Notes: generated by a model from the sequence alone, not told the origin. Shown: positions 4,774 to 60,435, counted from the stretch's first letter. The stretch is DNA of 64,000 nt from an uncultured Gemmatimonadales bacterium (GCA_963742755.1 CAVUMU010000002.1:108987-172986), one strand, 5' to 3'. Numbers and translations are program-made.

Positions 4774-7557
4774 GTGATACGACACATTGTCAGCACGATA
4801 GCCTGCGCACTCTTGATCGGTGGCACCGCAGCACCCCTGTTCGCGCAGTCCGGAACGCTGCGGGGCACGGTGGCTGACAGCAGCGGTTCGCCGCTTCCCA
4901 ATGCCTCCATCAACATCGATGGCACCGGGCTCCGGACCACTTCGGGCAATCAGGGCGAGTACACCATCCGCGGTGTGCCGGCTGGAAACCGGGTGGTGCG
5001 GGTTCGCCTCATCGGCTTCCAGGCAGCCACTGCTCCGGTCATGGTAGCCGCCGCGGACGAGACCCGTCAGGACTTCACCATGGTCCGGAGCACCGTCCAG
5101 CTGGCGCCGATCGATGTCGTGATCGGATCCCGTGGCCGTCACACGGCCTCCGAAGAGCTTGCGGTCCCCGTGGATGTCTACACCGCCGAGGACATCCAGG
5201 AGCAGGGCAGCACCGAGACCAGCCGGATCCTCGCGACACTCGCGCCCTCGGTGAACTTTCCGGTGCAGACGGTGACCGACGGCACCGATATCGTCCGTCC
5301 GTTCACGCTGCGCGGCCTCTCGCCTGACCACACCCTGGTGCTGGTCAACGGCTGGCGACGCCACCAGACGGCATTGCTCAACACCTTTCCGCTGGGTTCC
5401 CCGGCGGGGTCGAGTGGGGTGGATCTGAACGCGATTCCGGGCGTCGCAATCGAACGGATCGAGGTACTGCGCGATGGCGCCTCCTCCCAGTATGGCTCCG
5501 ACGCGATCGCGGGGGTGGTCAACATCGTGATGAAGGAGGGGGAGTTCTCACCGTTCATTAACACGAGTGCCGGCCGGTACTTCACCGGCGGCTACCCGGA
5601 TGACGGCACCACCGCGGACGTGGGCGGTGGGGTCGGGTTCAAGCTGGGCCGGGGCTCCCTCGGACTCTTCGGGCAGTTCCTCAACCGCGAGCCCACCAAT
5701 CGCGCGTTTCCGGACGGCACTCTGGAGGACCTCAATGGGGTGACCGACGTCGTGGACACCGTCACCGGCGAAATCATTCAGAAGCGCAATGGCGTGCCTC
5801 AGCCGGTCAATCACCTCGGGGACGGTCTCGAGCGGGATCTGCTGTCATTCGCCAACCTGCGCATGCCCCTGAACGAAAGCGGCTCCAGCGAGTTCTACGC
5901 CTTCGGCGGCTTCAGCAACCGGATCGGCACCGGTAACGGCTATTATCGCAAGCCGCTCAACAACCGGAACTGGCCGGCGATCTATCCGAATGGGTTCCTG
6001 CCGGAGTTTCGTCCCAACGTAAACGACTACTCGGGGGGGGCTGGAATCCGCACCAGCGTGGCCGGCTGGGGCGTCGACGCGGGTGGCTCCTACGGCCGCA
6101 GCACCTTCGATTACCGGCTGCGCAACACCCTCAACCCGTCGCTGGGCCCCTGCCTGGTGACACCCTGCGCACCTGGCGCTGACGGTACCCTCGGCACCGC
6201 CGATGACCCAGGTATTACCAATCAGACCAGCTTCGACGCCGGCAGCGTGAAGCGGGGTGAGTTCAGCCTGGGGCTCAACTTTTCCAAGCCGCTCGAGCTC
6301 GGGCTGCGCAATCCGGTCACCCTGGCTTTCGGTGGGGCATACCGCCGAGAGGATTATCAGATCGTCGCGGGTGAGACGGCTTCGTGGATCAACGGCGGGC
6401 ACCTGTCTCAGGATAGCGTGGCCACTCCGGGAGATCTGGCGCCGGCCGGCTCATCGGTCTTCTCCGGTTTCTCCCCGACCGACGCCAGCAGCAACTCGCG
6501 GAACAACATCGGTGCCTACGTCGAGCTGGAATCGGATCTGACCCAGCAGGTTCTGCTCAACATCGCAGGCCGCTACGAGCACTACAGCGACTTCGGCTCT
6601 CGGGTGACAGGCAAGGCCGCACTGCGGGTCCAGCCCAGCAAGCAGCTGGTGTTCCGCGCTGCGGCCAGCACCGGCTTCCGCGCCCCAGGCCTGGCGCAGA
6701 GCTGGTTCAGTCACGTCACTACCAACTTCATTGCTGGCAGCCTGGTCGAGGTCGGCAACTTCCCGGTGAGCAACCGGGCGTCGCAGATTTTCGGGGCCCA
6801 ACCCCTGAAGGAAGAGACCTCCGTTAACCTGAGCGGAGGCGTGGTGTTTTCCGCAACGGACAACTTCACGATCGCCGTGGACGTATTCCGCATCACCATG
6901 GACGATCGCATTCTGCTCGGCGCGACGTATGACGCCGGCGACAGCGTGGTGGCGCGGATTCTGGCCGATTCCGGATTCACCACCATCGGCGGTGTGCAGT
7001 TCCCCACCAACGCGCTGGACACCAGGACTGACGGGATCGACATAACCGGTGATCTCCGCCTGCCGGCGGGTAACGGCAACCTGGACCTCACTGCCTCGGC
7101 CAACTACACCAAAAACAAGATCCGCCGCGTGGGAGGCCTGCCACCGATCCTCCAGGGCACCGGGACATCCTTCACCGGCGCCCTCGACCTGCTGACGACC
7201 CTGGCCATCACCGAGGAGCGTCCGGACTGGCGTGGCACACTCACGGCGAACTGGTCTTCCGGCCGGTTCCATACCCTGGGCCGTGCGTCGTACTATGGCT
7301 CCGGGCGTTCCGCCGAGTTCGGCGGGGTGGTGGGAGAGACGTTCGAGGCCAAGACCCTGTTCGATGCCGAGGTGGGGTATCGCTTCAACCAGGTGAACAT
7401 CTCGATTGGAGCGAAGAACATTTTCGACACCTATCCCTCCAGGCTCCTTGACCTCGACAATAACAACAGTTGGACCTTCCCCTGGGCGGTCACCTCGCCG
7501 TTCGGCTATAACGGGCGGTACATGTATGTCAGATCGGAGATGCAGCTCGGCTACTAG
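4774..7557 (+). CDS. TonB-dependent receptor with CarboxypepD_reg-like N-terminal domain
   Basis: The ORF track gives 4693..7557. I prefer GTG 4774, preceded by GGAGGA, which yields signal peptide VIRHIVSTIACALLIGGTAAPLFAQ. Regulatory-like domain (GEYTIRGVPAGNRVVRVRLIGFQ). Plug motif IERIEVLRDGASSQYGSDAIAGVVNIVMK. Barrel ends MQLGY. Confidence 0.85.
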   Translation: MIRHIVSTIACALLIGGTAAPLFAQSGTLRGTVADSSGSPLPNASINIDGTGLRTTSGNQGEYTIRGVPAGNRVVRVRLIGFQAATAPVMVAAADETRQDFTMVRSTVQLAPIDVVIGSRGRHTASEELAVPVDVYTAEDIQEQGSTETSRILATLAPSVNFPVQTVTDGTDIVRPFTLRGLSPDHTLVLVNGWRRHQTALLNTFPLGSPAGSSGVDLNAIPGVAIERIEVLRDGASSQYGSDAIAGVVNIVMKEGEFSPFINTSAGRYFTGGYPDDGTTADVGGGVGFKLGRGSLGLFGQFLNREPTNRAFPDGTLEDLNGVTDVVDTVTGEIIQKRNGVPQPVNHLGDGLERDLLSFANLRMPLNESGSSEFYAFGGFSNRIGTGNGYYRKPLNNRNWPAIYPNGFLPEFRPNVNDYSGGAGIRTSVAGWGVDAGGSYGRSTFDYRLRNTLNPSLGPCLVTPCAPGADGTLGTADDPGITNQTSFDAGSVKRGEFSLGLNFSKPLELGLRNPVTLAFGGAYRREDYQIVAGETASWINGGHLSQDSVATPGDLAPAGSSVFSGFSPTDASSNSRNNIGAYVELESDLTQQVLLNIAGRYEHYSDFGSRVTGKAALRVQPSKQLVFRAAASTGFRAPGLAQSWFSHVTTNFIAGSLVEVGNFPVSNRASQIFGAQPLKEETSVNLSGGVVFSATDNFTIAVDVFRITMDDRILLGATYDAGDSVVARILADSGFTTIGGVQFPTNALDTRTDGIDITGDLRLPAGNGNLDLTASANYTKNKIRRVGGLPPILQGTGTSFTGALDLLTTLAITEERPDWRGTLTANWSSGRFHTLGRASYYGSGRSAEFGGVVGETFEAKTLFDAEVGYRFNQVNISIGAKNIFDTYPSRLLDLDNNNSWTFPWAVTSPFGYNGRYMYVRSEMQLGY

Positions 7558-9568: not shown

Positions 9569-10665
9569 TGGAGCGCACGCTCGGCCGAGAGTTCTACTTC
9601 TCGGAGGAAATCTTTGGCCTCGAGAAGGAACGTATCTTCTGCCGCGAGTGGTTCTGCGCCGGCCGCGAAGAGGATCTGCCTCCGGCGGGCGACTACCTGG
9701 CCCTCGACGTCGCGGGGGAGAGCGTCCTCGTGGTGCGGACCCGGGACGGTACGCTCGCGGCCCACTACAACGTCTGCCGGCACCGCGGATCGCGCCTGGT
9801 GCCGGCGGGTTCCCGGGGCTCTCTGGGCGGCACCATTCGCTGCCCCTATCACTCCTGGACGTACACCCTGGACGGCGCCCTCCGCACTGCTCCTCACCTC
9901 GATGAAGAGGACGGCTTCACCAAGGCGCGCTTGGGACTCAACCCGGTGGGCATCGAGATCTGGGGCGGGTTCTTCTTCCTCAACCTCACTCCGGCCGAAG
10001 CATCCAGCCGCAATTACGGTCTGCTCTCCCAGCTGGGCGAGATACCGGGACGGCTTCGGAGATATCCGCTGGCCGAGCTGCGCTCCGGGCGGCGGATCGA
10101 GTACGAGGTGGAGGCGAACTGGAAGGTCTTACTGGAGAACTACAACGAGTGCTATCACTGCGGGCCGGTTCATCCCGAATTGTGCCGGCTGGTGCCCGCT
10201 TTCAAGCAACGGGGCGGGTCCGACCTGGATTGGGAACGGGGTATCCCGCACCGTGAGGGCGCCTGGACGTTCACCGAGACCGGAACGACTAACCGAAGGC
10301 CGTTCGAGGGGCTCGATGACGATGAGCGGATCCGCCACAAGGGCGAGCTGATCTACCCCAACTTCATGCTCAGTCTCTCGGCGGACCACGTCACTGCCTA
10401 CACGGTCTGGCCCCGAGACGCGGACCACACAACAGTGGTGTGCGATTTTCTCTTTCACCCCTCCGAGATCGCATCGAACGAGTTCGATCCTTCGGACGCG
10501 GTCGACTTCTGGGACCGGGTGAACCGGCAGGATTGGGCCATCTGCGAGAACGTGCAGCGCGGGATGCAGTCGAGGGTGTTCGAGTACGGGTATTACGCGC
10601 CGATGGAGAGCGCGAGTCTCGACATCCGCCGGTACATAAAAGAAAAGCTGGGAGGTGAGAAGTGA
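9568..10665 (+). CDS. Rieske [2Fe-2S] non-heme-iron oxygenase, alpha-subunit type
   Basis: 365 aa. Rieske motif CRHRGSRLV...CPYHSWTY. Mononuclear-iron motif NYNECYHCGPVHPEL. No beta subunit or reductase gene is adjacent. The last codons and the TGA are supplied by the heptamer repeat. Confidence 0.85.
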   Translation: MERTLGREFYFSEEIFGLEKERIFCREWFCAGREEDLPPAGDYLALDVAGESVLVVRTRDGTLAAHYNVCRHRGSRLVPAGSRGSLGGTIRCPYHSWTYTLDGALRTAPHLDEEDGFTKARLGLNPVGIEIWGGFFFLNLTPAEASSRNYGLLSQLGEIPGRLRRYPLAELRSGRRIEYEVEANWKVLLENYNECYHCGPVHPELCRLVPAFKQRGGSDLDWERGIPHREGAWTFTETGTTNRRPFEGLDDDERIRHKGELIYPNFMLSLSADHVTAYTVWPRDADHTTVVCDFLFHPSEIASNEFDPSDAVDFWDRVNRQDWAICENVQRGMQSRVFEYGYYAPMESASLDIRRYIKEKLGGEK

Positions 10666-10811
10666 GAGGTGAGAAGGAACAGGTGCATCGTGTCCCGGGT
10701 GACGAAATGGATCTCCGATCACTCGTGGTAGGTCCTTCGCTTCGCTCAGGATGAGGAGCCTTCTGCCTATTCTCAGCTCGTCCTTCTCCCTTCTCACTTC
10801 TTACTTTTCAC
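10655..10811. repeat. Heptamer-array inverted repeat, GTGAGAA family (arms 10655-10675 and 10784-10811, 108-nt insert)
   Basis: Left arm GTGAGAA GTGAGAG GTGAGAA. Right arm TTCTCCC TTCTCAC TTCTTAC TTTTCAC, the reverse complement of the same unit type. Read directly from the sequence. Confidence 0.9.
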
Positions 10812-16057: not shown

Positions 16058-17483
16058 CCTGCCTTGTCCGCCGGCTGGCTCGACTGGCCGCACTCCTGTG
16101 CGCTCTCGCGATGCCCGCCGCAGCGCAGGCGCCGGCGCTCGATTACGACCGCCTTCGCGACGAGACCGCCCAGCGGCTGTCCGAGTATATCCGGATCAAC
16201 AGCAGCAATCCGCCGGGCAACGAGCTGGCCACCGCCCGCTGGCTCAAGGAGGTGCTGGCCAGGGAGGGGATCGAGGGACAGATCCTCGACACCGCCGAGC
16301 TGGGAGCGGGACGGGCCAACTTCTACGCTCGGCTGAGGGGGAACGGCTCCGGGAAAGCGATCGCCCTGGTGCACCATATGGATGTGGTGCCGGTATCCCG
16401 GGAGTTCTGGACCGAGGATCCATTCGCGGGGCTGATCAAGGACGGCTATGTCTGGGGCCGCGGCGCCCTGGATATGAAGGGCCACGGCATCGTCCAACTG
16501 ATGACTCTGATCGCCATCAAGCGCGCGGGCATCCAGCTCAACCGCGACCTGGTGTACATCGGCAATGCTGATGAGGAGTCGGGTGGACTGGGAGCCAAGA
16601 CCTTCATCGTACGGCACCCTGATCTCATCAAGGACGTCGAGTATCTGCTGACCGAGAGCGGTGGAAGTCGGGTTGAGAAGGGAAAGTCCGATGGTTCGGC
16701 CTGAACGTGGGGGAGAAGCGGGCGTATTGGCAGAAGCTGGTGGTGAAGGGCAAGGCGTCCCATGGCTCCAGGCCAACTCCCTACAACCCGGTGCCTCGCC
16801 TCGCGCGAATACTGACGCGCGTTGCCGCATGGGAGACGCCGTTACGACTCACGCCCGCAGTGGATCGCTACCTCAGGGCGGCGGCGCTCGCCGAAACCGG
16901 TGAGCACCGCCGCTGGCTGGCCGACCCGGCACGGGCCCTCGAGTCTGCCCGGGGGCGAGCCTGGCTTCTCAGCGAGCCAGAGCGCAACGCGCTGTTGCGG
17001 AACACGATTTCTCCGACTGTCCTCGTCGGGTCCAACAAGACCAACACCATACCGCCCGAGGCCTCCGCGGAGCTCGATATCCGCCTGCTTCCCGACCAGG
17101 ACACGGTGGCTTTCCGGCGAGAGCTCCTTCGGGTGATCGGTGACACCGGCTTCACGCTAACATCGATCGGAGACATGGCACCTCCCTTCTCCGCGCCGCT
17201 GGATACCGAAATGTCCCGCGCCATCGAGCGTACCGCTGCGCGCCTCCTCCCGGGGGTTCCATTTGCGACCACGACCAGTACCGGTGCGACTGATCGGCCC
17301 TATTACGCGGGCGCGGGGATCATCTGTTATGGGATCGATCCGGCTCTCGTGGATATTGAAGAGGTCCGGCGAGGCGTCCACGGCAATGATGAGAGGGTCT
17401 CGATCGAGAACCTCGGTTTCGGGCTCAAGCTGTATGCGGGAGTGATTCAGGAGATGCAGGCGGTAAAAAAGCGTGAACGGTGA
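16054..17483 (+). pseudogene. M20-family metallopeptidase interrupted by one frameshift (ORFs 16054..16704 and 16707..17483)
   Basis: The N-terminal half carries VHHMDVVPV, GRGALDMKG and NADEESGG. The frame breaks in GAGAAGGGAAAG (about 16675-16690). The other frame continues as KVRWFGLNVGEKRAYWQKLVVKGKASHGSRP, the expected continuation of an M20 dimerisation-domain boundary. Confidence 0.75.
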
Positions 17484-17536
17484 AAAGTTAACGGTAAACG
17501 GGGGCGGTGGAGGCCGGTTCACTGTTCACTGTTCAC
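17473..17536. repeat. Heptamer-array inverted repeat, GTGAACR family (arms 17473-17500 and 17516-17536)
   Basis: Left arm GTGAACG GTGAAAA GTTAACG GTAAACG, loop GGGGCGGTGGAGGCC, right arm GGTTCAC TGTTCAC TGTTCAC. The stop codons of both convergent genes lie inside the arms. Confidence 0.9.
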
Positions 17537-18666
17537 ACCTTTGCACTTCCATGTCCTAATGCCTTCAGCACCTCTCGATCGAACTGAACCGACAGACTCT
17601 CCCGCTTGGAGTACGGCCCCGGCTGGTACGCCCGGGACTGCACCCCGAGCTGGCTCTGCTCGCAGATGTGCCAGTCCTGCCGGTTGGTCATGTCCCAGAA
17701 CGCGATCCCGTCTTCCGGGTCGTGAGCGGGATTGTTCAGACTGTCGGGATGAAAGAGCCAGGAACAGAGGATCCTGGTGCGATCCGGCGCCTCGGGCCAC
17801 AGGGTGTGGAACATCACATAGTCGGGGTGCAGGCTGAGCAGCATGTTGGGAAAGACGGCGTAATAGTAGACCCGGTTCAGGTCTTCCTCAGGCAGGTCGC
17901 CCACCATGACCCCGCATGACCGGCCACTCATGGTCAGGCTCTGGTGGCCCTCGTTGATCACCATGAAGCCCCCGGTGACCGGGCCGTTCACCAGGTCGTT
18001 CTCCCCGCTCGTGGGCGGAGTGAGCTTTGCGAGGGGCGGGTGTACCGGACCACAGTGATAGCACTCGGAGTAGTTCTGGAAGAGCAGCTTCCAGTTGGCC
18101 TTTACCTCGTATTCCATGGTGCGGGCCACCGTCAGATTCGACATGTTGAACCGGTCGAACCGGCCGATGAGCGATTGGCAGGCCTGAGCGAAGGGCTCGG
18201 CATCCTCCGCCAGATTGATGAAGAGAAATCCTTCCCAGCTCTGAATGCCGACGGAATGCAGCGGATAGTCCGCCTTGGCAAAGCCCTCGATCTCGGACGC
18301 CGAAGGCGCCCCGATCAGTCGGCCATCCAGGGCGTAGGTCCAGGCATGATAGGGGCACTGAATGGTCTCGGAAAACCGGCCGGTGTGCTGCTCACAGAGC
18401 CGGGTCCCGCGATGCCGACAGACGTTGTAGTAAGCTCGCAGGGTGCCGCCCTGATCCCGCAGCACGATGATGCTCTCGGTCCCGACCTGCTGGACCAGGT
18501 AGTCCCCGGGCCCCGCGATGCGGTCCTCTCGCCCCACGCACAGCCATCGACGGGTGAAGATTCGCTCGGTCTCCTCGGCGAAGATCTCCGGGGCAACGTA
18601 GTAGCGGCGGGGCAGGGTCTTGGCCCCGTCAATGGCAATTTGGGTGGTCTTGACGAACGATGTCAC
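17533..18666 (-). CDS. Rieske [2Fe-2S] non-heme-iron oxygenase, alpha-subunit type (paralogue of 9568..10665)
   Basis: 377 aa. CRHRGTRLC...CPYHAWTY and NYSECYHCGPVHPPL. Colinear similarity to the first Rieske protein (e.g. EVKANWKLLFQNYSECYHCGPVHP versus EVEANWKVLLENYNECYHCGPVHP). Confidence 0.85.
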   Translation of the reverse strand: MTSFVKTTQIAIDGAKTLPRRYYVAPEIFAEETERIFTRRWLCVGREDRIAGPGDYLVQQVGTESIIVLRDQGGTLRAYYNVCRHRGTRLCEQHTGRFSETIQCPYHAWTYALDGRLIGAPSASEIEGFAKADYPLHSVGIQSWEGFLFINLAEDAEPFAQACQSLIGRFDRFNMSNLTVARTMEYEVKANWKLLFQNYSECYHCGPVHPPLAKLTPPTSGENDLVNGPVTGGFMVINEGHQSLTMSGRSCGVMVGDLPEEDLNRVYYYAVFPNMLLSLHPDYVMFHTLWPEAPDRTRILCSWLFHPDSLNNPAHDPEDGIAFWDMTNRQDWHICEQSQLGVQSRAYQPGPYSKRESLSVQFDREVLKALGHGSAKV

Positions 18667-19252: not shown

Positions 19253-19260
19253 GGGAGCGT

Positions 19261-19329
19261 CGGGAGTCAGGAGACAGGAGTCAGGAGCACTCTCGAACTC
19301 CCGACTCCGCCTCCCGACTCGACTACTCG
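19261..19329. repeat. Heptamer-array inverted repeat, GGAGTCA family (arms 19261-19287 and 19298-19329)
   Basis: CGGGAGTCAGGAGACAGGAGTCAGGAG, loop CACTCTCGAA, then CTCCCGACTCCGCCTCCCGACTCGACTACTCG. Lies between convergent genes. Confidence 0.85.
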
Positions 19330-28308: not shown

Positions 28309-28418
28309 GAGTCTAGGGTCGAGGGTCTGGAGTCTACGCTCAAACCTGCGGATTGCATACATTGCGACTCTTGAATCCTGGCTCTACACCTCGACTCTAG
28401 ACGCTAGACTCTGGACCA
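28309..28418. repeat. Heptamer-array inverted repeat, GAGTCTA/GGGTCTR family (arms 28309-28336 and 28384-28418, 47-nt spacer)
   Basis: Left arm GAGTCTA GGGTCGA GGGTCTG GAGTCTA. Right arm CTACACC TCGACTC TAGACGC TAGACTC TGGACCA. Lies in the divergent LOG/AKR gap. Confidence 0.9.
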
Positions 28419-30023: not shown

Positions 30024-30506
30024 ATGAGCCTTCCCGGCGAGGTCCTTCAGGGCATTCTGGCGCGCGGGGCGTTGGTGCTCTTGCGGGTGTACCTGGGGGT
30101 GATCTTCCTCGTCGCCACACTGCCGAAGCTACAGCACGATTTCACGCCTCATCTCATAGGATTCGTCCAGCAGGTCGGACTGGAAAGAGGCCATCCCTTC
30201 TACCAGCAGTTCCTCGAGCGGGTGGTACTGCCCAACGCCGCGTTTTTCGCGGCTCTGGTCACCGGTTCCGAGCTGTTCGTCGGGGTGACCCTCATCCTGG
30301 GCCTGATGACCCGAGTCTCTGCGTCGGTGGCGCTGACCCTCGCCCTGAATTACATGTTCGCCAAAGGGGCATGGTTCTGGACCCCATCCAGCAACGACGC
30401 GGCCTTGGTCGCCATTGCCCTGGCCCTGCTCATAGGGGCGGCGGGGCGAACGCTGGGACTGGACTCCTTCCTGGCCCGCCGGTGGCCGCGGTCGCCGCTC
30501 TGGTAA
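30024..30506 (+). CDS. DoxX-family membrane protein
   Basis: 160 aa with four hydrophobic helices. LRVYLGVIFLVATLPKL is a typical DoxX N-terminus. Confidence 0.7.
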   Translation: MSLPGEVLQGILARGALVLLRVYLGVIFLVATLPKLQHDFTPHLIGFVQQVGLERGHPFYQQFLERVVLPNAAFFAALVTGSELFVGVTLILGLMTRVSASVALTLALNYMFAKGAWFWTPSSNDAALVAIALALLIGAAGRTLGLDSFLARRWPRSPLW

Positions 30507-30603
30507 GTGAGAAGTAAGAAGTAAGAAGTGAGAAGTGAGAAGTGAGAAGGGTGGCTGGGGGGCCCTCTCACTGCTCACCTCTCACTTCTCACTTCTCACT
30601 TCC
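30507..30603. terminator. Heptamer-array hairpin (GTGAGAA family) filling the whole convergent gap; probable bidirectional terminator
   Basis: Six units GTGAGAA/GTAAGAA (30507-30548), loop GGGTGGCTGGGGGGCCC, and five units TTCTCAC-type (30566-30599). By hand pairing, about 33 Watson-Crick pairs over about 38 positions. Confidence 0.7.
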
Positions 30604-30604
30604 G

Positions 30605-34604: not shown

Positions 34605-34608
34605 CAAA

Positions 34609-34635
34609 GACGGAGAAGACGGAGAAGGCGGAGGG
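34609..34635 (+). repeat. Purine-rich 9-mer tandem array (GACGGAGAA GACGGAGAA GGCGGAGGG), 5 nt after the stop codon
   Basis: Read directly. Same unit family as 54926-54990 and 57844-57879. Confidence 0.85.
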
Positions 34636-34661
34636 GTCCGGCGCGGCCCCCCCGCTTTTTT
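34633..34661 (+). terminator. Intrinsic terminator (GC stem + T6)
   Basis: GGGGTCCG gcg CGGCCCC stem (one bulge), followed by CCCGCTTTTTT. It overlaps the end of the 9-mer array. Confidence 0.65.
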
Positions 34662-34779
34662 CTGTTCTGGCCCCCGTCCCCACCATCCCTTCTCCCCTCT
34701 TCCCGTCCGCGCTTTCCGGCCGCATCATATGTCGCGTCTTATGGAACCTCCCAGCGCAGTTGTCCTCAAGGAGATCGCG

Positions 34780-38131: not shown

Positions 38132-39421
38132 CTAGGACACGCGCCGGGTCTTTCGCTTCATGAAGTCCATGAGAATGAACTGTCCGAGCGTCATAGTGTT
38201 GGTGAAGTACGCCTTGCCCCGGCAGATGGACGCCACCTGCTTGACGAATTCGACCAGGCTTCGATCCCGGGCCAGCATGAAGGTATTGATCATGATGCCG
38301 CTGCGACGGCAGTTCGACACCTCGCGATACGTAGCCTGCAGAATCTGGGGATCCAGGCCCATCGAGTTCACATAAATCCGGCCGTCGGGCATGGTGAGTG
38401 CCGACGGCTTGCCGTCTGTGATCATGATGATCTGCCGCATGTCCTTCTTCTGCCCCAGCAGCAGGCGACGGGCCAGCTTGAGCCCTTCGGCGGTATTGGT
38501 GTGATAGGGACCCACCTGGGCCGTGGCCAGGGCGCTCAGCGGAATTTCCTCGGCGGAATCATGGAAGAGTACGACCCGCAGACTGTCGCCGGGGAACTGG
38601 GTGCGAATCAGATGGGTGAGCGCCAGCGCGACCTTCTTTGCTGGAGTGAACCGGTCCTCGCCGTAGAGAATCATCGAGTGGGAGCAGTCCAGCATCAGCA
38701 CCGTTGCCGCGGAGGAGCGATACTCGGACTGGTTCACCATCAGGTCGCTGTACTCGATGTTGAGCGGGACACCCAGGCCCTCCCGCGCGATCGCGTTGGT
38801 CAGCGTGGCCGGTACATCGAGGTTGAGGACGTCACCGAACTCGTAATGCTTGCTGACGCCCTCGGCCTCGACTCCGGTGGCGAGGTAGGGCGTATCATGG
38901 GCCCCGAAGCTCGACTTGCCCACGCTGCCGAGCAGGTTCTTGAGCGTCTTATAGCCGAGGAAGTCGATGCCTTTTTCGGTCAGATTGAACTGCACCTGCT
39001 GGGCAGCCGAATGCGCTTGACCGCCAGGCCCGAACATCGACTGGTAGCCCTGGGGCACCTGGGGAGCCTGGCTGATGTTCAGGTAGCCCTCCGCCATCAG
39101 GCGCTGAACGATCTTGTCGAGCAGATCGCTCAGCTCGCCCTCGATCTCCTTATCCCGGGCCTCGTCACCGGTAGACTCTCCTCTGAGGACCTTCAGCATG
39201 TCGGGCGTCAGCTGGCCCGAATCCATGAGGGCCTGGAGAATGGCCTGACGCAGGGCCTCCAGCGAACGCTCGCTCTCCCCCATATCGTCGTGCCAGAAGG
39301 ACGGCGAATTCCCCGCGAACCCAGATTGCAGCAGAAAATCGCTCAGCTGGTCGAGGAGCCCCTGCAGATTGACCTGATCCGCGAGCTCGGGGTGGTATTT
39401 GGAGTAGGTGGTGAAGCGCAT
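38132..39421 (-). CDS. VWA-domain protein of the type normally paired with ChlI-like AAA+ ATPases
   Basis: 429 aa. C-terminal VWA with MIDAS-type LMLDCSHSM...ITDGKP. N-terminus MRFTTYSKYHPE. Confidence 0.8.
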   Translation of the reverse strand: MRFTTYSKYHPELADQVNLQGLLDQLSDFLLQSGFAGNSPSFWHDDMGESERSLEALRQAILQALMDSGQLTPDMLKVLRGESTGDEARDKEIEGELSDLLDKIVQRLMAEGYLNISQAPQVPQGYQSMFGPGGQAHSAAQQVQFNLTEKGIDFLGYKTLKNLLGSVGKSSFGAHDTPYLATGVEAEGVSKHYEFGDVLNLDVPATLTNAIAREGLGVPLNIEYSDLMVNQSEYRSSAATVLMLDCSHSMILYGEDRFTPAKKVALALTHLIRTQFPGDSLRVVLFHDSAEEIPLSALATAQVGPYHTNTAEGLKLARRLLLGQKKDMRQIIMITDGKPSALTMPDGRIYVNSMGLDPQILQATYREVSNCRRSGIMINTFMLARDRSLVEFVKQVASICRGKAYFTNTMTLGQFILMDFMKRKTRRVS

Positions 39422-39424
39422 TTA

Positions 39425-39609
39425 GAAAGGTCTAGGGTCTAGTGTCAGGGATCGAAGCATAACCTTCATTTGTATTGATAACGTCTAGGAGACGGGTTCA
39501 CCATGGTGCGCCGGTTAAGTCCAGATCCTAGACTCCTGGACCCTGGACCCTGGACCCTGGACCCTGGACCCTAGGCCCTAGACTCCAGACTTTAGACTCT
39601 AGACCTTTC
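39425..39609. repeat. Heptamer-array inverted repeat, GGTCTAG/CCTGGAC family (left arm 3 units 39429-39449, right arm 12 units 39521-39604)
   Basis: The right arm includes five perfect CCTGGAC copies (39535-39569). Terminal 18-bp inverted repeat 39425-39442 / 39592-39609 (11 perfect bp GAAAGGTCTAG/CTAGACCTTTC, then 5 Watson-Crick and 2 G-T). AT-richer 70-nt centre. Confidence 0.9.
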
Positions 39610-39613
39610 CGCC

Positions 39614-40882
39614 GTGCTGCCTTCCTCTGCCCGCGCCGTCTTCGCCGCTCTCAAGCACCGGAACTTCCGGCTCTTCCTAACCGGCCAGTTCATTTCTCTC
39701 TGCGGCACCTGGATGCAGACCATCGCCCAGGGGTGGCTGGTGCTGCGTCTCACCGACTCGGCCTTTGCGGTCGGCCTGGTCACCGCCCTGGGATCGCTCC
39801 CGATCCTGCTGTTTACGTTGTATGGCGGGGTGATCGCGGATCGGGTGAACAAGCGGCGATTCATCATGGTGCTCCAGAGCCTGATGCTGCTCGAGGCCCT
39901 GACGCTGGGGGTGTTGACTGCCCTGGATTTGATCACGGTCGAGTGGGTAATGGGGCTTGCGGTGTTCTTTGGCCTCCTCACCGCCTTCGAGGTGCCGGTG
40001 CGGCAGGCGTTTGTGGCTGAGATCGTGGATCGGGATGACCTGATGAACGCCATTGCCCTGGGGTCGAGCGCATTCAACCTGGCCCGGGTCATTGGTCCCG
40101 CGCTGGCCGGAGTTCTCATTGCCACGCTGGGGCTGCCGGCATGTTTCTTTGCCAACGCGGCCAGTTACCTGGCGGTCATCGCGAGTTTGGTGCGAATGCA
40201 GGTCCCGCAGACAGTGGCGCACCGCGCTGCTTCTCTGTGGACCGCCTTGGGGGAAGGGGTGAGCTATATCCTCGGCAGGCGTTGGCCACGCGCCCTGGTC
40301 ATCATCGTTACGACATTCAGCATCTTCGGCTTTTCCTTCATGCCACTGATGCCGGTGTTCGCCCGTGATGCGCTGGGGCTCAACGCAAGCGGTTACGGTG
40401 TGATGGTGGCCTCGATTGGGGCTGGCGCCCTGGCGGCCGCCTTTTTCATGGCGGCGTTTGGCGGCCGGGTGCGGCAATCCCGTCTGGTTCTGGGATCCTC
40501 CATCGTCTTCGGCACGGTGCTCGTTGCCGCCGCGCTGGCCCCGAATTTCTGGTCGGCTGCAATCCTGTTCACGCTCTGTGGCGGTGTGATGGCCCTCAAT
40601 GGAATCGCGGCCAACACCATGCTTCAGACTGAGGCACCCGATGAGATGCGCGGCCGGGTAATGGGATTCTACTCCTTCATGGTGCTGGGCCTGGCTCCCG
40701 TTGGGTCGCTGCAGGCGGGCTGGGTCGCCGAGCATTTCGGCGTGCGGATAGCCTTTGCGGTGGGCGGGCTGGTCTGCCTAACCGTGGCGGCTGGGGTGGC
40801 CTGGTGGATGGGGCGCGCGGTTCGGGACCGGCGTGACGAACGCGAGCGGGTAGCGGCGCTGGAACGAAGGGAGAGACCATGA
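39614..40882 (+). CDS. MFS transporter (EntS/MFS_3-like)
   Basis: 422 aa, about 12 TM helices. N-terminus ALKHRNFRLFLTGQFISLCGTWMQ is typical of this MFS subgroup. Confidence 0.85.
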   Translation: MLPSSARAVFAALKHRNFRLFLTGQFISLCGTWMQTIAQGWLVLRLTDSAFAVGLVTALGSLPILLFTLYGGVIADRVNKRRFIMVLQSLMLLEALTLGVLTALDLITVEWVMGLAVFFGLLTAFEVPVRQAFVAEIVDRDDLMNAIALGSSAFNLARVIGPALAGVLIATLGLPACFFANAASYLAVIASLVRMQVPQTVAHRAASLWTALGEGVSYILGRRWPRALVIIVTTFSIFGFSFMPLMPVFARDALGLNASGYGVMVASIGAGALAAAFFMAAFGGRVRQSRLVLGSSIVFGTVLVAAALAPNFWSAAILFTLCGGVMALNGIAANTMLQTEAPDEMRGRVMGFYSFMVLGLAPVGSLQAGWVAEHFGVRIAFAVGGLVCLTVAAGVAWWMGRAVRDRRDERERVAALERRERP

Positions 40883-41544
40883 TCATCACGATATCCCGGC
40901 AATATGGCGCCGGCGGGTCTGAGGTTGCCCGCCGGGTGGCCGCCGCGCTCAACTGGCGGGTAGTCGATAACGAGCTGGTCGAGGAAGTTGCCGCACGAGC
41001 CGGGCTACCGGCTTCGGATGTCGCGGAGCGCGAGGAGCGGGTACCCAGCTTTGCCGAACGGCTGGCGCGCACGCTGGCGGCCTCCACGCCTGAACTTTTC
41101 GCTGCGCCGGTCCCCGGCGGTACCGTGCCCAGATTGCAGGAGACTGATCTGGTGCGGATCACCGAAACGGTGGTGGCCGAGGTGGCCGCGAAGGGCCGGG
41201 CTGTGCTGGTGGGCCGAGCTGCGCCGGCGGTACTGGCCCGGGAAAGCAACGGTCTTCACGTTCAACTCGTTGCTCCCCGGGCTTGGCGAATCCAGGCGGC
41301 CGCCGAACGACTCGGCGTGGATCAGGCGAAGGCCGCGGAAATTCTGGATGAGACCGACCGCACCCGGGCGAACTATCTTCGCCAGTACTATCGGCGCGAT
41401 TGGTACGACCCGGTGAACTATCACCTGGTGCTGAACACTGGAGTCCTGGGATTGGACGGAGCAACCGAGGTGATCGTGGGAGAGGCGAGGCGACGGGGGT
41501 GGATTGAGGGCGGCCCCGCTGCCCCGCTGGTCACCCGAAGCTGA
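40879..41544 (+). CDS. Cytidylate-kinase-like family protein
   Basis: 221 aa. MIITISRQYGAGGSEVARRVA P-loop-like N-terminus. ATGA overlap with the MFS gene. Confidence 0.75.
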   Translation: MIITISRQYGAGGSEVARRVAAALNWRVVDNELVEEVAARAGLPASDVAEREERVPSFAERLARTLAASTPELFAAPVPGGTVPRLQETDLVRITETVVAEVAAKGRAVLVGRAAPAVLARESNGLHVQLVAPRAWRIQAAAERLGVDQAKAAEILDETDRTRANYLRQYYRRDWYDPVNYHLVLNTGVLGLDGATEVIVGEARRRGWIEGGPAAPLVTRS

Positions 41545-45125: not shown

Positions 45126-45213
45126 GTAAGAGGTGAGAAGTAAGAAGTAAGAGAGAAAACGGAGAAGGCGGTTGCCAATTGTCCTTCTCACCTCTCACTT
45201 TCATTTCTTATCC
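45126..45213. repeat. Heptamer-array inverted repeat, GTGAGAA/GTAAGAA family (arms about 45126-45168 and 45183-45213)
   Basis: Left arm GTAAGAG GTGAGAA GTAAGAA GTAAGAG ...GGAGAAGG, loop CGGTTGCCAATTGT, then CCTTCTCAC CTCTCAC TTTCATTTCTTATCC. The glcF stop (TAA 45210..45208) lies in the right arm. Confidence 0.85.
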
Positions 45214-46485
45214 GTAAAACCCCGCCTCATCATACGAGAGATCCAGCAGCTCCACCGGATGAGCGACGCCGATGGGAAGGCGGGCAGCTCGAAGGCCGGC
45301 TCCGATCTGCATCAGGCAGCCGGGGTTGCCGCTGACGATCAGATCGGGCCGGGGTCGGGCTTCCGCCACACTCGCGATCTTGCTCTCGAGCACCGCGCGG
45401 GCCATAGCGGGACGCAGGACGGAATAGATCCCCGCGCTGCCGCAGCAGCGGTCCGAGCCCGGCAGGATCCGAAGTCGTAAACCGGGAACCGCCTCCAGCA
45501 TGGCGAGCGGGGCCCGGTGGACGCGCTGGGCGTGCTGAAGGTGACAAGGGGCGTCGTACGCTACATCCAGGCCGATCGGTGCGCCGGGCCGGGGGCCTCT
45601 CTCGGCCAGTAGCTCGGAGATGTCACGGACCCGGGCCGCCAGTCTTGCCGGCGCACCTGGGCCCAACAGACGTCCGTAGTCCTTGAGCAGCGCCCCGCAC
45701 CCGGCGCTATTCACCACGATGAAGTCTGCCTTCCCCTCGAGAGCCGCGACATTCGCCGCTGCCAGAGACCGAGCGCCACCCACATCTCCCGCATGCTCGT
45801 GCAACGCCCCACAACAGGCCTGGCCCCCGGCCTCGATGACCCGATACCCGTTCACTCGCAGGGTTCGCTTGGTGGCTTCGTGCACGTGGCTGAAAAGCGT
45901 GTTCATCACGCAGCCGCGGAAGAGGACGACAGTCGGAGAGGACGGAGATGGCGGTGAGGATCGGTAGGGATCAGAAGTCGGAGACGGCGCGGCCTTTCTC
46001 TGCTCCGCCTGCTCGGTCATCTCGGACGAGGACGCGAGCATGCCCATCCCGAACCCAAGCCGCCCTTTGCCGGCCAGGACGCTGGGCAGACCAGTGGAGC
46101 GGAGCCCCCGCGCCACGGTAAACAGGGGGCGCCAGAGCTTTCCGTAGCGAAAGACACCAAGGACCAGCCGCGCCAACGAGGAGAGGCCTCGGGCGTGGTA
46201 GATCTGTTCCCGTGCGGCCTCCAGGCCGCGACCATAGCCCACGCCGGAGGGGCAGACCGGCTCGCACCCGCGGCAGCCGAGACATCCCTCGAGGTGATCC
46301 AGCAACCCCGGATCGTGAGGACTCATCTCCCCACGTTCCAGGGCCCGCATCAGCACAATACGACCGCGGGGGCTGTCCCCCTCGTCGCCAGTGACCAGGT
46401 ATGTCGGGCAGGCCGGCAGACAGAACCCGCAATGCACACAGGGATCCAGGGCGGAGTAGCCGTTCCCTGGTTCCACCTTAAGCAT
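45208..46485 (-). CDS. glcF: Glycolate oxidase iron-sulfur subunit
   Basis: 425 aa. Two ferredoxin-type clusters, CVHCGFCLPACPTY and CLGCRGCEPVCPSGV, plus two CCG domains. Confidence 0.85.
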   Translation of the reverse strand: MLKVEPGNGYSALDPCVHCGFCLPACPTYLVTGDEGDSPRGRIVLMRALERGEMSPHDPGLLDHLEGCLGCRGCEPVCPSGVGYGRGLEAAREQIYHARGLSSLARLVLGVFRYGKLWRPLFTVARGLRSTGLPSVLAGKGRLGFGMGMLASSSEMTEQAEQRKAAPSPTSDPYRSSPPSPSSPTVVLFRGCVMNTLFSHVHEATKRTLRVNGYRVIEAGGQACCGALHEHAGDVGGARSLAAANVAALEGKADFIVVNSAGCGALLKDYGRLLGPGAPARLAARVRDISELLAERGPRPGAPIGLDVAYDAPCHLQHAQRVHRAPLAMLEAVPGLRLRILPGSDRCCGSAGIYSVLRPAMARAVLESKIASVAEARPRPDLIVSGNPGCLMQIGAGLRAARLPIGVAHPVELLDLSYDEAGFYG

Positions 46486-49778: not shown

Positions 49779-49789
49779 GCCGGAATGTA

Positions 49790-49896
49790 GCGGGGCAGCG
49801 GGGCGGCGGGGCAGAAAGGCGATCGGTATCGGAAATCGAAAGGCCGGCTGGATTCCGCCGGCCCTCTTGTCACTGCCCCGCGGCCCCGCCGCTCGC
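49790..49896. repeat. Octamer-array inverted repeat, GCGGGGCA family (arms 49790-49814 and 49873-49896) enclosing a terminator-like hairpin
   Basis: GCGGGGCA GCGGGGCG GCGGGGCA G ... CTGCCCCG CGGCCCCG CCGCTCGC. An inner hairpin GGCCGGC/GCCGGCC (49842-49863) is followed on the minus strand by TTTCGATTTCC, which makes it the likely terminator of the sigma gene. Confidence 0.85.
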
Positions 49897-54926: not shown

Positions 54927-54990
54927 CGGGAGAGCGGAAAGGCGGGAAAGGCGGGAAAGGCGGGAAAGGCGGGAAGGACGGGAAGGAGGG
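54926..54990 (+). repeat. Purine-rich 9-mer tandem array, about 7 units (GGCGGGAAA core x3 perfect), starting at the stop codon
   Basis: GCGGGAGA GCGGAAA GGCGGGAAA GGCGGGAAA GGCGGGAAA GGCGGGAAG GACGGGAAG GAGGG. Read directly. I could find no convincing inverted partner. Confidence 0.9.
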
Positions 54991-60344: not shown

Positions 60345-60435
60345 CAGCGGGGCAGGGGGCAGGGGGCAGGGGGCAGTAAAAGTTCACTGAGCCGGCTGAA
60401 CCGGGCAACCGCCCCGCGGCCCCGCGGCCCCGCTG
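60345..60435. repeat. GC-rich 7/8-mer-array inverted repeat, GGGGGCA / GCGGCCCC family (arms 60345-60376 and 60409-60435)
   Basis: CAGCGGGGCA GGGGGCA GGGGGCA GGGGGCA G ... CCGCCCC GCGGCCCC GCGGCCCC GCTG. The outer 9 bp CAGCGGGGC/GCCCCGCTG are perfectly complementary. Confidence 0.85.

What the first reader, a model, noticed from the sequence alone, without database searches (positions are those of the whole stretch)
39425..39609. Largest and most asymmetric element (3 versus 12 units, five perfect CCTGGAC copies) lies 3-4 nt from two divergent start codons
The 192-nt gap between the VWA gene (ATG 39421, minus strand) and the MFS gene (GTG 39614, plus strand) is bounded by an 18-bp terminal inverted repeat. 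That repeat (39425-39442 / 39592-39609) starts 3-4 nt from each start codon. As a result neither gene has a recognisable SD, and both 5' UTRs would be made of repeat units. The right arm is an 84-nt run of 12 heptamers, a VNTR-like tract likely to vary in copy number. The only AT-richer sequence that could hold divergent promoters is the 70-nt centre (39451-39520). If both arms are transcribed they could sequester translation initiation regions. The element also marks the junction of a probable gene-order rearrangement (see the AAA+/VWA finding).
Basis: partly seen in the sequence, partly recalled or inferred. Interest (0 to 1): 0.65.

Follow-up and report, generated by a model that had tools for sequence, protein, structure and literature searches.

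The report
Inverted heptamer-repeat arms around divergent promoter
The repeat-built inverted structure between the two divergent genes is real, but it is one local copy of a family of heptamer-repeat hairpin elements that fill intergenic gaps throughout Gemmatimonadales genomes, a little-studied kind of bacterial repeat already described in Xanthomonas and Nostoc, and it probably does not mask the start codons as first proposed.

Summary
The 192-nt gap between the VWA gene (ATG 39421, minus) and the MFS gene (GTG 39614, plus) has a 17/18 complementary terminal inverted repeat. There are 3 heptamers on the left and 12 on the right, five of them perfect CCTGGAC. Neither gene has an SD.

The element is not unique. 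The window holds at least 8 such elements with different units. In 850 kb of Gemmatimonadales DNA I found 54, of which 46 have a purine-rich 5' arm and a pyrimidine-rich 3' arm and 1 is reversed.

The VWA/MFS junction is ancestral, not a rearrangement. Most of the 80 related loci keep it.

In about 40 orthologous gaps the heptamer unit differs between lineages, yet the two arms stay matched. The centre keeps promoter-like boxes. MFS keeps a -10-like box 6 nt before its start, the leaderless-mRNA signature that is common in this lineage.

A transcript starting in the centre carries only one arm, and that arm alone is unstructured (z -1.2). Sequestration of the start codons is therefore unlikely.

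Copy number differs between species but not between two pairs of near-identical strains.

The closest known kind is the GGGNATC inverted heptamer repeats of Xanthomonas and Nostoc, whose function is unknown. I class this as a new variant of that kind.

The parts
38132..39421 (-). VWA_2-domain gene; its ATG is at 39421-39419
   Evidence: Pfam VWA_2. The N-terminus MRFTTYSKY aligns from residue 1 in all orthologs.
39425..39450 (.). Left arm, purine/G-rich on the + strand. It holds about 3 heptamers (GGTCTAG GGTCTAG TGTCAGG, 39429-39449). Its outer 18 nt, 39425-39442, form the left terminal inverted repeat.
39427..39432 (-). GACCTT (read on the minus strand), a -10-like hexamer 5 nt before the VWA ATG. 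It mirrors the box on the MFS side. Weak candidate only.
   Evidence: Read. It is not consistently present in VWA orthologs. L039 has TAGACT, 6 nt, then ATG.
39451..39520 (.). Unique AT-richer centre (GC 0.457). It is single-copy and conserved among orthologs.
39471..39482 (+). Invariant box TGTATTGATAAC. It contains the -35-like TTGATA at 39475-39480.
   Evidence: Alignment A1. Promoter scan of orthologs.
39499..39504 (+). Invariant CACCAT, -10-like, 18 nt after TTGATA. It points toward MFS.
   Evidence: L138 keeps centre, right arm and MFS although a tRNA-Gly gene replaces VWA.
39521..39609 (.). Right arm, pyrimidine/C-rich on the + strand. It holds 12 heptamers (39521-39604). The outer 18 nt, 39592-39609, form the right terminal inverted repeat.
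39535..39569 (+). Five perfect CCTGGAC units, a lineage-specific recent expansion. The closest relative found, L118, has CTCTAGA x3 at this place instead.
39541..39578 (-). G3N4 G-quadruplex motif (GGGTCCA)n on the minus strand, which is the template strand for MFS.
   Evidence: Regex scan. Sequence motif only.
39602..39607 (+). GACCTT, a -10-like hexamer 6 nt before the MFS GTG. Candidate leaderless promoter.
   Evidence: 66 of 83 MFS orthologs have [T/G]AnnnT 5-8 nt before the start. In 620 crudely called genes, TAnnnT at exactly 6 nt occurs 40 times against about 3 at other offsets, across several gene families.
39614..40882 (+). MFS_3 transporter gene, GTG start
   Evidence: Pfam MFS_3 1.3e-70, profile position 3 at residue 9. 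Orthologs.

Best explanation
What it is:
The feature is the local member of a family of non-mobile intergenic elements that evolve in place in Gemmatimonadales. Each element has a purine-rich tandem heptamer array, a unique centre, and the complementary pyrimidine-rich array.

Shown:
- At this locus the element brackets the shared promoter region of two anciently adjacent divergent genes.
- The centre carries conserved promoter-like boxes, TTGATA-18-CACCAT, pointing at MFS.
- The outer tip of the right arm carries a -10-like box 6 nt before the GTG. This is the signature of leaderless mRNAs, which are common in this SD-poor lineage. The missing SD is therefore normal for the lineage.
- The unit sequence and unit number of the arms change between species, while the two arms stay matched.

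Inferred:
- The arms are promoter-upstream DNA, or single-arm, pyrimidine-rich, start-codon-free and weakly structured leaders. Within either mRNA they cannot pair with each other.
- Unit number changes by replication slippage.
- The arms are kept alike by DNA-level copying between them (template switching or gene conversion in a quasi-palindrome), not by selection on an RNA helix.
- Copy number is close to neutral.
- The constant arm orientation keeps SD-like and GTG-containing purine units out of the sense strand upstream of genes.
For: Family:
- At least 8 elements with different units in the window.
- 54 elements in 850 kb.
- Periods 7, 8 and 9 are specifically enriched: 65, 46 and 22 arrays, against 6 or fewer for periods 4-6 and 10-13.
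- Polarity: 46 purine-to-pyrimidine, 7 ambiguous, 1 reversed.

Not mobile:
- The centre is single-copy in the window.
- Every high-GC metagenome hit to the centre pattern that I read lies next to MFS. I read about 13; part of that output was cut.
- No target-site duplication.

Ancient locus:
- VWA/MFS synteny is conserved in most of the 80 loci. Gaps of 28-57 nt without repeats occur in distant relatives and gaps of 125-240 nt with arrays in the nearer clades.

Matched arms:
- At least 12 unit types occur at this locus, including GGTCTAG, GGAGTCR, GGAGCTG, GTGAACG, GTGAAAG, GGTGAGA, GGTGAGC, GGTGACC, CAGGGAA and GGGAAAC. Each is mirrored in the opposite arm.
- 6-mer containment is 0.155 for a species' own arms against 0.059 across species, permutation p<=5e-5.

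Promoter boxes.

Leaderless signature. SD use of about 22% in class Gemmatimonadetes (PMC10783764).

No RNA-level constraint:
- The single-arm leader folds at z -1.18.
- Arm mismatches are G:T 51, A:C 45, other 62.

Neutral, dispensable behaviour:
- The asymmetry flips. L092 has at least 17 left units against about 5 right.
- Near-identical strains have identical arms.
- The same convergent gene junction has no gap in the window but a 140-nt element in L017.
Against: - No transcription data exist for this lineage, so promoter assignments rest on consensus resemblance. CACCAT and GACCTT are weak -10 boxes, and the tool's own stricter scan found no promoter here.
- The near-universal purine-to-pyrimidine polarity also holds between convergent genes, where a 'keep purine units away from starts' rule does not apply. 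A purely neutral model therefore leaves the polarity only half explained.
- The arm-matching statistic is not corrected for phylogeny.
- Template switching between arms 70-135 nt apart is inferred, not shown.
- The VWA-side promoter is unresolved in the close clade.
Confidence: 0.5

Rival explanations
1. Polar transcription boundary. RNA polymerase entering the element from either side first makes the purine-rich arm and then the pyrimidine-rich arm. A long hairpin forms while the RNA:DNA hybrid is of the weak pyrimidine-RNA type. This terminates or stabilises transcripts without a U-tract. Outward transcription is unimpeded. At this divergent locus the element would block antisense or read-in transcription and insulate the two promoters.
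For: - Uniform purine-to-pyrimidine polarity in convergent, tandem and divergent contexts.
- Arms abut stop codons at 17473, 19259, 30504, 10652 and 45129.
- Canonical hairpin-plus-T-tract terminators are not enriched: 39 found against about 32 expected.
- The same polarity rule was reported for Xanthomonas and Nostoc heptamer repeats (PMC4692102).
Against: - At this locus no sense transcript enters the element.
- Elements are dispensable at orthologous junctions.
- Arm mismatches show no G:U bias, even in tandem contexts.
- The 9 unpaired extra units of the right arm are superfluous for a hairpin.
- The hybrid-stability argument is my inference.
Confidence: 0.17
2. G-quadruplex regulator. The right arm gives six G3 tracts (GGGTCCA)n on the template strand of MFS. 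A G4 there, or an i-motif on the other strand, modulates promoter opening or elongation, as proposed for GGGNATC repeats.
For: - G4 motif at 39541-39578 on the minus strand.
- GGGTCTA and GGGTCCA units have the G3N4 form that folds into G4 in vitro in Rehm et al. 2015 (PMC4692102).
- L092 has at least 17 GGGTCTA/GGGACTA units.
Against: - Most unit types of the family, and of this very locus in other species, have no G3 tracts (GTGAGAA, GTGAACG, GGAGTCA, GGTGAGC).
- The left arm here has only two GGG tracts.
Confidence: 0.1
3. Contingency (phase-variable) switch. Slippage in the perfect CCTGGAC tract changes promoter geometry or leader length and switches MFS and VWA expression within populations.
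For: - Five perfect units are slippage-prone.
- Heptamer loci are true strain-level VNTRs in Xanthomonas, for example GGGATTT/GGGAATC with 6-18 copies (PMC8002079).
- Copy number differs between species here.
Against: - Two pairs of near-identical strains show no unit-number change.
- Because the array is periodic, adding units does not alter the sequence next to the -10 box.
- The genes are housekeeping-type, not surface antigens.
- Rehm et al. judged a phase-variation role unlikely for their repeats.
Confidence: 0.08
4. Both arms are transcribed and pair in the RNA, occluding both translation initiation regions.
For: The full element folds strongly, with the helix ending 3-4 nt from each start.
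Against: - Divergent transcripts from the centre each carry one arm.
- The single-arm leader is unstructured.
- No wobble bias in the arm mismatches.
- The leaderless signature.
Confidence: 0.05
5. A MITE- or REP-like mobile element that inserted between the two genes.
For: Terminal inverted repeats. Many hairpin elements in intergenic regions.
Against: - No target-site duplication.
- The centre is single-copy and locus-specific in the window and in the metagenome hits read.
- The arms are tandem repeats that differ between loci.
- The element is orthologous across many species.
Confidence: 0.03

Closest known systems
GGGNATC-type heptamer repeats of Xanthomonas (GGGAATC) and Nostoc (GGGGAYT), including their 'convergent' inverted pairs (Rehm et al. 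2015, PMC4692102)
   Same: - Tandem heptamers of 2-26 units, enriched in intergenic DNA.
- 70-75 inverted pairs per genome that could form stem-loops.
- The G-rich strand is the non-coding strand within 50 bp upstream of ORFs and the coding strand within 50 bp after stops. This is the same polarity.
- Positions are conserved between species while lengths differ.
- Not linked to mobile elements.
- Function unknown.
   Different: - There, one unit consensus per genome and G4 formation as the unifying idea. Here, many unrelated units per genome, most without G-tracts.
- Units turn over at one orthologous locus while the arms stay matched.
- There, the repeats are under-represented between divergent ORFs. 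This element is divergent and flush with two start codons.
TAACTGA direct heptamer repeats of Beggiatoaceae, cyanobacteria and Bacteroidetes (MacGregor 2015, PMC4679880)
   Same: Heptamer arrays within a few nucleotides of start codons, in intergenic regions that lack canonical ribosome-binding sites. A translational role was proposed but not tested.
   Different: Those are direct repeats of one fixed unit, with a single indirect repeat among 169 sets. Here the arrays are inverted and have variable units.
Cyanobacterial STRR heptamers (from memory; not checked here)
   Same: Dispersed tandem heptamers in non-coding DNA of unknown function.
   Different: A few fixed units. Paired inverted architecture and polarity are not known to me as defining features.
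REP/BIME/REPIN elements and MITEs
   Same: Intergenic elements made of inverted repeats and able to form hairpins.
   Different: Those are multi-copy families with a conserved sequence, mobilised by a transposase. Here the centre is single-copy and the arms are locus-specific tandem repeats.
Promoter or 5'-UTR simple-sequence-repeat switches (for example the H. influenzae intergenic SSR in PMC12721329; V. cholerae ctxAB TTTTGAT heptads)
   Same: Tandem heptamers in a promoter or leader region.
   Different: Those are single direct arrays with demonstrated expression effects. Here no strain-level variation was seen and the arms are inverted.

Membership tests
Intergenic heptamer SSR arrays with inverted pairs (Rehm-type) | Tandem repeats with a 7-nt period, several units | tested here: met
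   TRF and repeat finder. 10 arrays in the window against 0.39 expected.
Intergenic heptamer SSR arrays with inverted pairs (Rehm-type) | Enrichment in non-coding DNA close to ORF ends | tested here: met
   90 of 124 arrays are intergenic by crude gene calls. Arms abut starts and stops.
Intergenic heptamer SSR arrays with inverted pairs (Rehm-type) | Convergent G-rich orientation: G-rich strand antisense upstream of ORFs and sense after stops | tested here: met
   46 purine-to-pyrimidine, 7 ambiguous, 1 reversed. This element has G-rich units on the left and C-rich units on the right of the + strand.
Intergenic heptamer SSR arrays with inverted pairs (Rehm-type) | Unit consensus GGGNATC / GGGGAYT | tested here: not met
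   Units here are GGGTCTA and GGGTCCA. Elsewhere they include GTGAGAA, GTGAACG and GGAGTCA.
Intergenic heptamer SSR arrays with inverted pairs (Rehm-type) | G-quadruplex formation | not testable with these tools
   A motif is present on the minus strand at 39541-39578. There is no biophysical test.
MITE | Target-site duplication and multiple copies with the same internal sequence | tested here: not met
   Flanks are TTA and CGCC, with no duplication. The centre is single-copy and always next to MFS in the hits read.
REP/REPIN | High-copy conserved palindromic unit with a cognate RAYT transposase | tested here: not met
   Arm units differ between loci. The presence of a RAYT gene was not examined.
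Intrinsic terminator | GC-rich hairpin followed by a U-tract at a gene's 3' end | tested here: not met
   The element lies between two start codons. The terminator scan found none in 39300-39750.
Contingency-locus SSR (phase variation) | Copy-number differences between closely related strains | tested here: inconclusive
   Two pairs with at least 99% identical flanks have equal unit numbers. No same-species copy of the window was found.
Leaderless mRNA gene (MFS) | -10 box about 6-7 nt upstream of the start codon and no SD | tested here: met
   GACCTT, 6 nt, GTG. 66 of 83 orthologs. Lineage-wide peak of 40 against about 3.
Leaderless mRNA gene (MFS) | Transcription start at the start codon | not testable with these tools
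   Needs 5'-end mapping.
Known structured RNA (Rfam) | Match to a curated covariance model | tested here: not met
   Only chance-level hits, E>3, far below the gathering scores.

The most novel reading that the evidence does not exclude
Gemmatimonadales may use purine-to-pyrimidine short-repeat hairpins (periods 7-9) as a general, fast-evolving, U-tract-independent and orientation-coded transcription boundary. Inward transcription from either side would be stopped and outward transcription allowed. The two arms would be kept matched by inter-arm copying. At divergent leaderless promoters such as VWA/MFS the element would insulate the two promoters. The same logic would then explain the unexplained polarity of the heptamer repeats in Xanthomonas and cyanobacteria.
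Probability: 0.15. Interest if true: 0.7.

Novelty: new variant of a known kind. Interest (0 to 1): 0.5.

Why it matters
Intergenic heptamer repeats have been noted in several bacterial phyla for decades without an accepted function.

This locus adds a comparative series of about 40 orthologous copies. In it the repeat unit has been replaced many times, yet the architecture, the matching of the arms and the purine-to-pyrimidine polarity persist. Such data can separate selection from mutational drive.

The work also shows a strong leaderless-mRNA signature in Gemmatimonadales, a phylum with almost no transcript-level data. That signature matters for calling gene starts in these abundant soil bacteria.

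If the polarity reflects a directional transcription boundary, it would be a new type of terminator or insulator. If it does not, the elements are a clean natural example of concerted evolution in quasi-palindromic microsatellites.

Tried and rejected
- Exact-product look-ups for both flanking proteins found nothing.
- A metagenome scan with the window-specific centre gave 0 hits, so copy number within the window's own species could not be tested.
- Rfam gave only chance hits.
- The built-in sigma-70 and terminator scan found nothing in the gap. My looser scan, at least 8 of 12 matches, finds TTGATA-18-CACCAT.
- RNAduplex energy for a species' own arms against arms of other species was confounded by arm length, since the window's long arm pairs best with everything. 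I replaced it with k-mer containment.
- The idea that the pyrimidine units are arrays of -35 boxes (TAGACC or TGGACC against TTGACA) was considered and dropped. A 4-of-6 match in some rotation of a heptamer is not unusual, and several unit types do not fit.
- The idea that the units derive from the -10 box (TAGACT) fits only the GTC-type units.
- A small ORF from the ATG inside CACCATGG was rejected. Its length and sequence are not conserved (23 codons here, 7 in L043).
- Cruciform extrusion in duplex DNA is judged unlikely because the arms are 70-135 nt apart (inference).
- The wobble-bias test for RNA-level selection gave no signal in any gene context.
- The rearrangement-junction idea was rejected on synteny.

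Full report
**1. The observation**

The gap between the VWA_2 gene (38132-39421, minus) and the MFS_3 gene (39614-40882, plus) is 192 nt.

- Its ends are GAAAGGTCTAGGGTCTAG (39425-39442) and CTAGACTCTAGACCTTTC (39592-39609). They are 17 of 18 complementary, and 25 nt at 84% when extended.
- The left arm has three heptamers.
- The right arm has twelve (39521-39604), including five perfect CCTGGAC units at 39535-39569.
- The centre is AT-richer: GC 0.457, against 0.54 and 0.58 for the arms and 0.645 for the window.
- Neither start codon is preceded by a GGAG-type SD.
- Period-7 arrays are far above chance: 10 in the window against 0.39 in Markov-1 simulations.
- The whole element folds better than shuffles: RNA z -5.3, DNA z -3.8.
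- Both start codons are backed by homology.

The description is correct in every particular.

**2. It is one of a family**

The window holds at least eight elements of the same build: a purine-rich heptamer array, a unique centre, and the complementary pyrimidine-rich array. Their units differ.

| Coordinates | Unit |
|---|---|
| 10652-10806 | GTGAGAA |
| 17473-17538 | GTGAACG |
| 19259-19322 | GGAGTCA |
| 28312-28417 | GAGTCTA / GGGTCGA |
| 30504-30604 | AAGTGAG |
| 39425-39609 | GGTCTAG |
| 45129-45215 | GTAAGAA |
| 60349-60433 | GGGGCAG / GCCCCGCG |

The organism is a member of the Gemmatimonadales. The best MFS matches, at 91% identity, are Gemmatimonadales MAGs.

Across the window plus 80 related loci (850 kb):

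- Periods 7, 8 and 9 are specifically enriched, with 65, 46 and 22 arrays against 6 or fewer for periods 4-6 and 10-13.
- I found 54 inverted heptamer-array elements.
- 46 have the purine-rich arm 5' and the pyrimidine-rich arm 3'. Seven are ambiguous, most of them still running from G-rich to C-rich. One is reversed, and it is a 12-nt mini-hairpin.
- By symmetry the same order is read on both strands.

The elements occur between convergent, tandem and divergent genes, often flush with stop codons. Canonical hairpin-plus-T-tract terminators are not enriched in this genome: 39 found against about 32 expected.

**3. The locus in relatives**

The divergent VWA/MFS pair is adjacent in most of the 80 loci. 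It is therefore an old junction, not a rearrangement scar.

- Distant relatives have gaps of only 28-57 nt and no repeats. In L039 the gap is little more than two back-to-back -10-like boxes.
- Nearer clades have gaps of 125-240 nt that are built like the window.
- The heptamer unit differs between lineages. At least a dozen types occur, including GGTCTAG, GGTCCAG, GGAGTCR, GGAGCTG, CAGTCGC, GTGAACG, GTGAAAG, GGTGAGA, GGTGAGC, GGTGACC, CAGGGAA and GGGAAAC.
- In each genome the right arm carries the complement of that genome's own left arm.
- 6-mer containment is 0.155 for a species' own arms against 0.059 across species, permutation p<=5e-5. This is not corrected for phylogeny.
- The asymmetry is not fixed. 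L092 has at least 17 units on the left and about 5 on the right.
- L118, the closest relative found (2 mismatches in the centre), has 3 left units and about 11 right units, like the window. Its right arm is built from different unit variants.
- Two pairs with at least 99% identical flanks (L008/L131 and L013/L137) have identical unit numbers. At about 96% flank identity (L010/L011) both unit mix and unit number differ.

The arrays therefore evolve faster than their flanks, but they are not hypervariable in the available sample. No same-species copy of the window could be found.

**4. Promoters and translation starts**

Fifteen close-clade gaps align only in the centre. There TGTATTGATAAC and (G/T)CACCAT(GG) are invariant and 14-15 nt apart. 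This reads as -35 TTGATA, a 17-18 nt spacer, and -10 CACCAT on the plus strand. 24 of 26 close-clade genomes keep it.

A more distant clade instead keeps TTGA(A/C)C, 16-18 nt, TAnnAT on the minus strand of its centre, pointing at VWA (and reading).

In L138 a tRNA-Gly gene replaces VWA, but the centre, the right arm and MFS stay together.

Independently, MFS orthologs keep a [T/G]AnnnT hexamer 5-8 nt before the start codon in 66 of 83 cases, with or without repeats. In the window this is GACCTT at 39602-39607, followed by 6 nt and then GTG.

Over 620 crudely called genes, TAnnnT ending exactly 6 nt before the start occurs 40 times, against about 3 at other offsets. The hits come from several unrelated gene families. 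This is the classic leaderless-mRNA signature. It fits the report that only about 22% of genes in class Gemmatimonadetes use an SD (PMC10783764).

The absence of an SD is therefore a property of the lineage, not a consequence of the repeat.

**5. What the arms can and cannot do**

A transcript that starts in the centre, or at the tip of an arm, carries at most one arm. In both divergent directions that arm is the pyrimidine-rich strand.

- The putative MFS leader (39513-39640) is not significantly structured (z -1.18) and leaves the start region open.
- Mismatches between the arms across 40 orthologs are G:T 51, A:C 45 and other 62. There is no wobble bias of the kind expected for a selected RNA helix on either strand. 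The other elements show none either.
- At one orthologous convergent junction the window has no intergenic DNA at all, while L017 has a 140-nt GTGAACG element. Individual elements are therefore dispensable.

Together this argues against the start-codon sequestration model. It favours DNA-level processes: slippage for unit number, and copying between the arms of a quasi-palindrome to keep them matched. Both of those processes are inferred.

The near-universal polarity is the part a neutral account does not fully explain. Keeping SD-like and GTG-containing purine units out of the sense strand upstream of genes would explain tandem and divergent contexts. It does not explain convergent ones.

A polar terminator or insulator would explain all contexts. 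In that model a weak pyrimidine-RNA:DNA hybrid coincides with completion of the hairpin. It lacks direct support and is hard to apply between two divergent starts.

**6. Comparison with known systems**

The closest description is Rehm et al. 2015 (PMC4692102). That paper reports the following for the GGGAATC repeats of Xanthomonas and the GGGGAYT repeats of Nostoc:

- They are heptamers of 2-26 units and are intergenic.
- There are 70-75 'convergent' inverted pairs per genome.
- The G-rich strand is antisense just upstream of ORFs and sense just after stops.
- Positions are conserved between species while lengths change.
- They are under-represented between divergent ORFs.
- Their function is unknown, and G4 formation is proposed.

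The Gemmatimonadales elements share the architecture, the location and the polarity. They differ in having many unit types per genome, most of them unable to form G4, and in the documented turnover of units at one orthologous locus.

Other comparisons:

- TAACTGA repeats next to start codons in Beggiatoaceae (PMC4679880) are a second analogue, but they are direct repeats of one unit.
- Heptamer loci are strain-level VNTRs in Xanthomonas (PMC8002079). The perfect CCTGGAC tract may therefore well vary, but this is by analogy only.
- MITE, REP, riboswitch and terminator memberships fail on defining features.
- Literature searches that combined Gemmatimonas or Gemmatimonadetes with repeat-related terms found no description of these repeats.

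**7. Verdict**

The feature is real and more than chance.

It is a new variant of a known but functionally unexplained kind of bacterial repeat.

Interest is moderate, 0.5. This single element is ordinary within its family. The family, with its strict polarity, its matched-arm turnover and the leaderless context, deserves a genome-wide and transcript-level follow-up.

Noticed in passing
window 10652-10806, 17473-17538, 19259-19322, 28312-28417, 30504-30604, 45129-45215, 60349-60433: Seven further inverted heptamer-array elements with different units. All have the purine-rich arm 5' and the pyrimidine-rich arm 3'. Several are flush with stop codons of convergent or tandem genes.
   Followed up: partly
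window 34607-34720, 54936-54984, 49789-49821, 41513-41529: Arrays of period 8-9, such as (AAGACGGAG)3 with a CT-rich partner, (GGAAAGGCG)5 and (AGCGGGGC)3. They seem to belong to the same purine-to-pyrimidine hairpin class. Periods 8 and 9 are also enriched in the 850-kb set.
   Followed up: partly
window and loci L001-L080 (for example window 18758; L012 6075; L049 6215): TAnnnT ending exactly 6 nt before the start codon occurs in 40 of 620 crude genes, against about 3 at other offsets, in several gene families. This is a strong leaderless-mRNA signature in Gemmatimonadales. Many longest-ORF start calls in these genomes may be checkable with it.
   Followed up: partly
window 1-60000: Canonical hairpin-plus-T-tract terminator matches are no more frequent than in shuffled sequence (39 against about 32).
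   Followed up: yes
window 41531-41544 versus L017 8069-8209 (also L006 7931-7989 and L019 8173-8252): The convergent cytidylate-kinase-like gene and the 488-aa gene overlap by 14 nt in the window. In relatives they are separated by a 60-140-nt GTGAACG/GTGAAAA hairpin element, so the element is present or absent at the same junction in different species.
   Followed up: partly
L138 312-386 and L005 1-423: In two relatives the DNA left of the element is different. L138 has a tRNA-Gly gene instead of VWA. In L005 the centre and left arm are replaced while the right arm and MFS remain. Breakpoints sit at or inside the element.
   Followed up: partly
L092 (contig Ga0180121_10000028), left arm upstream of position 6015-6048 on the minus strand: The orthologous element has at least 17 GGGTCTA/GGGACTA units in its left arm and about 5 on the right. 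This is the mirror image of the window's asymmetry.
   Followed up: no
window 60349-60376 and 54944-54990 (+); 39541-39578 and 34671-34704 (-): Several of the repeat arms are canonical G-quadruplex motifs (G3+N1-7 repeated at least four times).
   Followed up: no
L034 4823-4906 and L035 2620-2664: Arrays of GGGATTA with CCCTAAC / CCCCTAA. These are telomere-like TTAGGG-containing heptamers arranged as an inverted pair.
   Followed up: no
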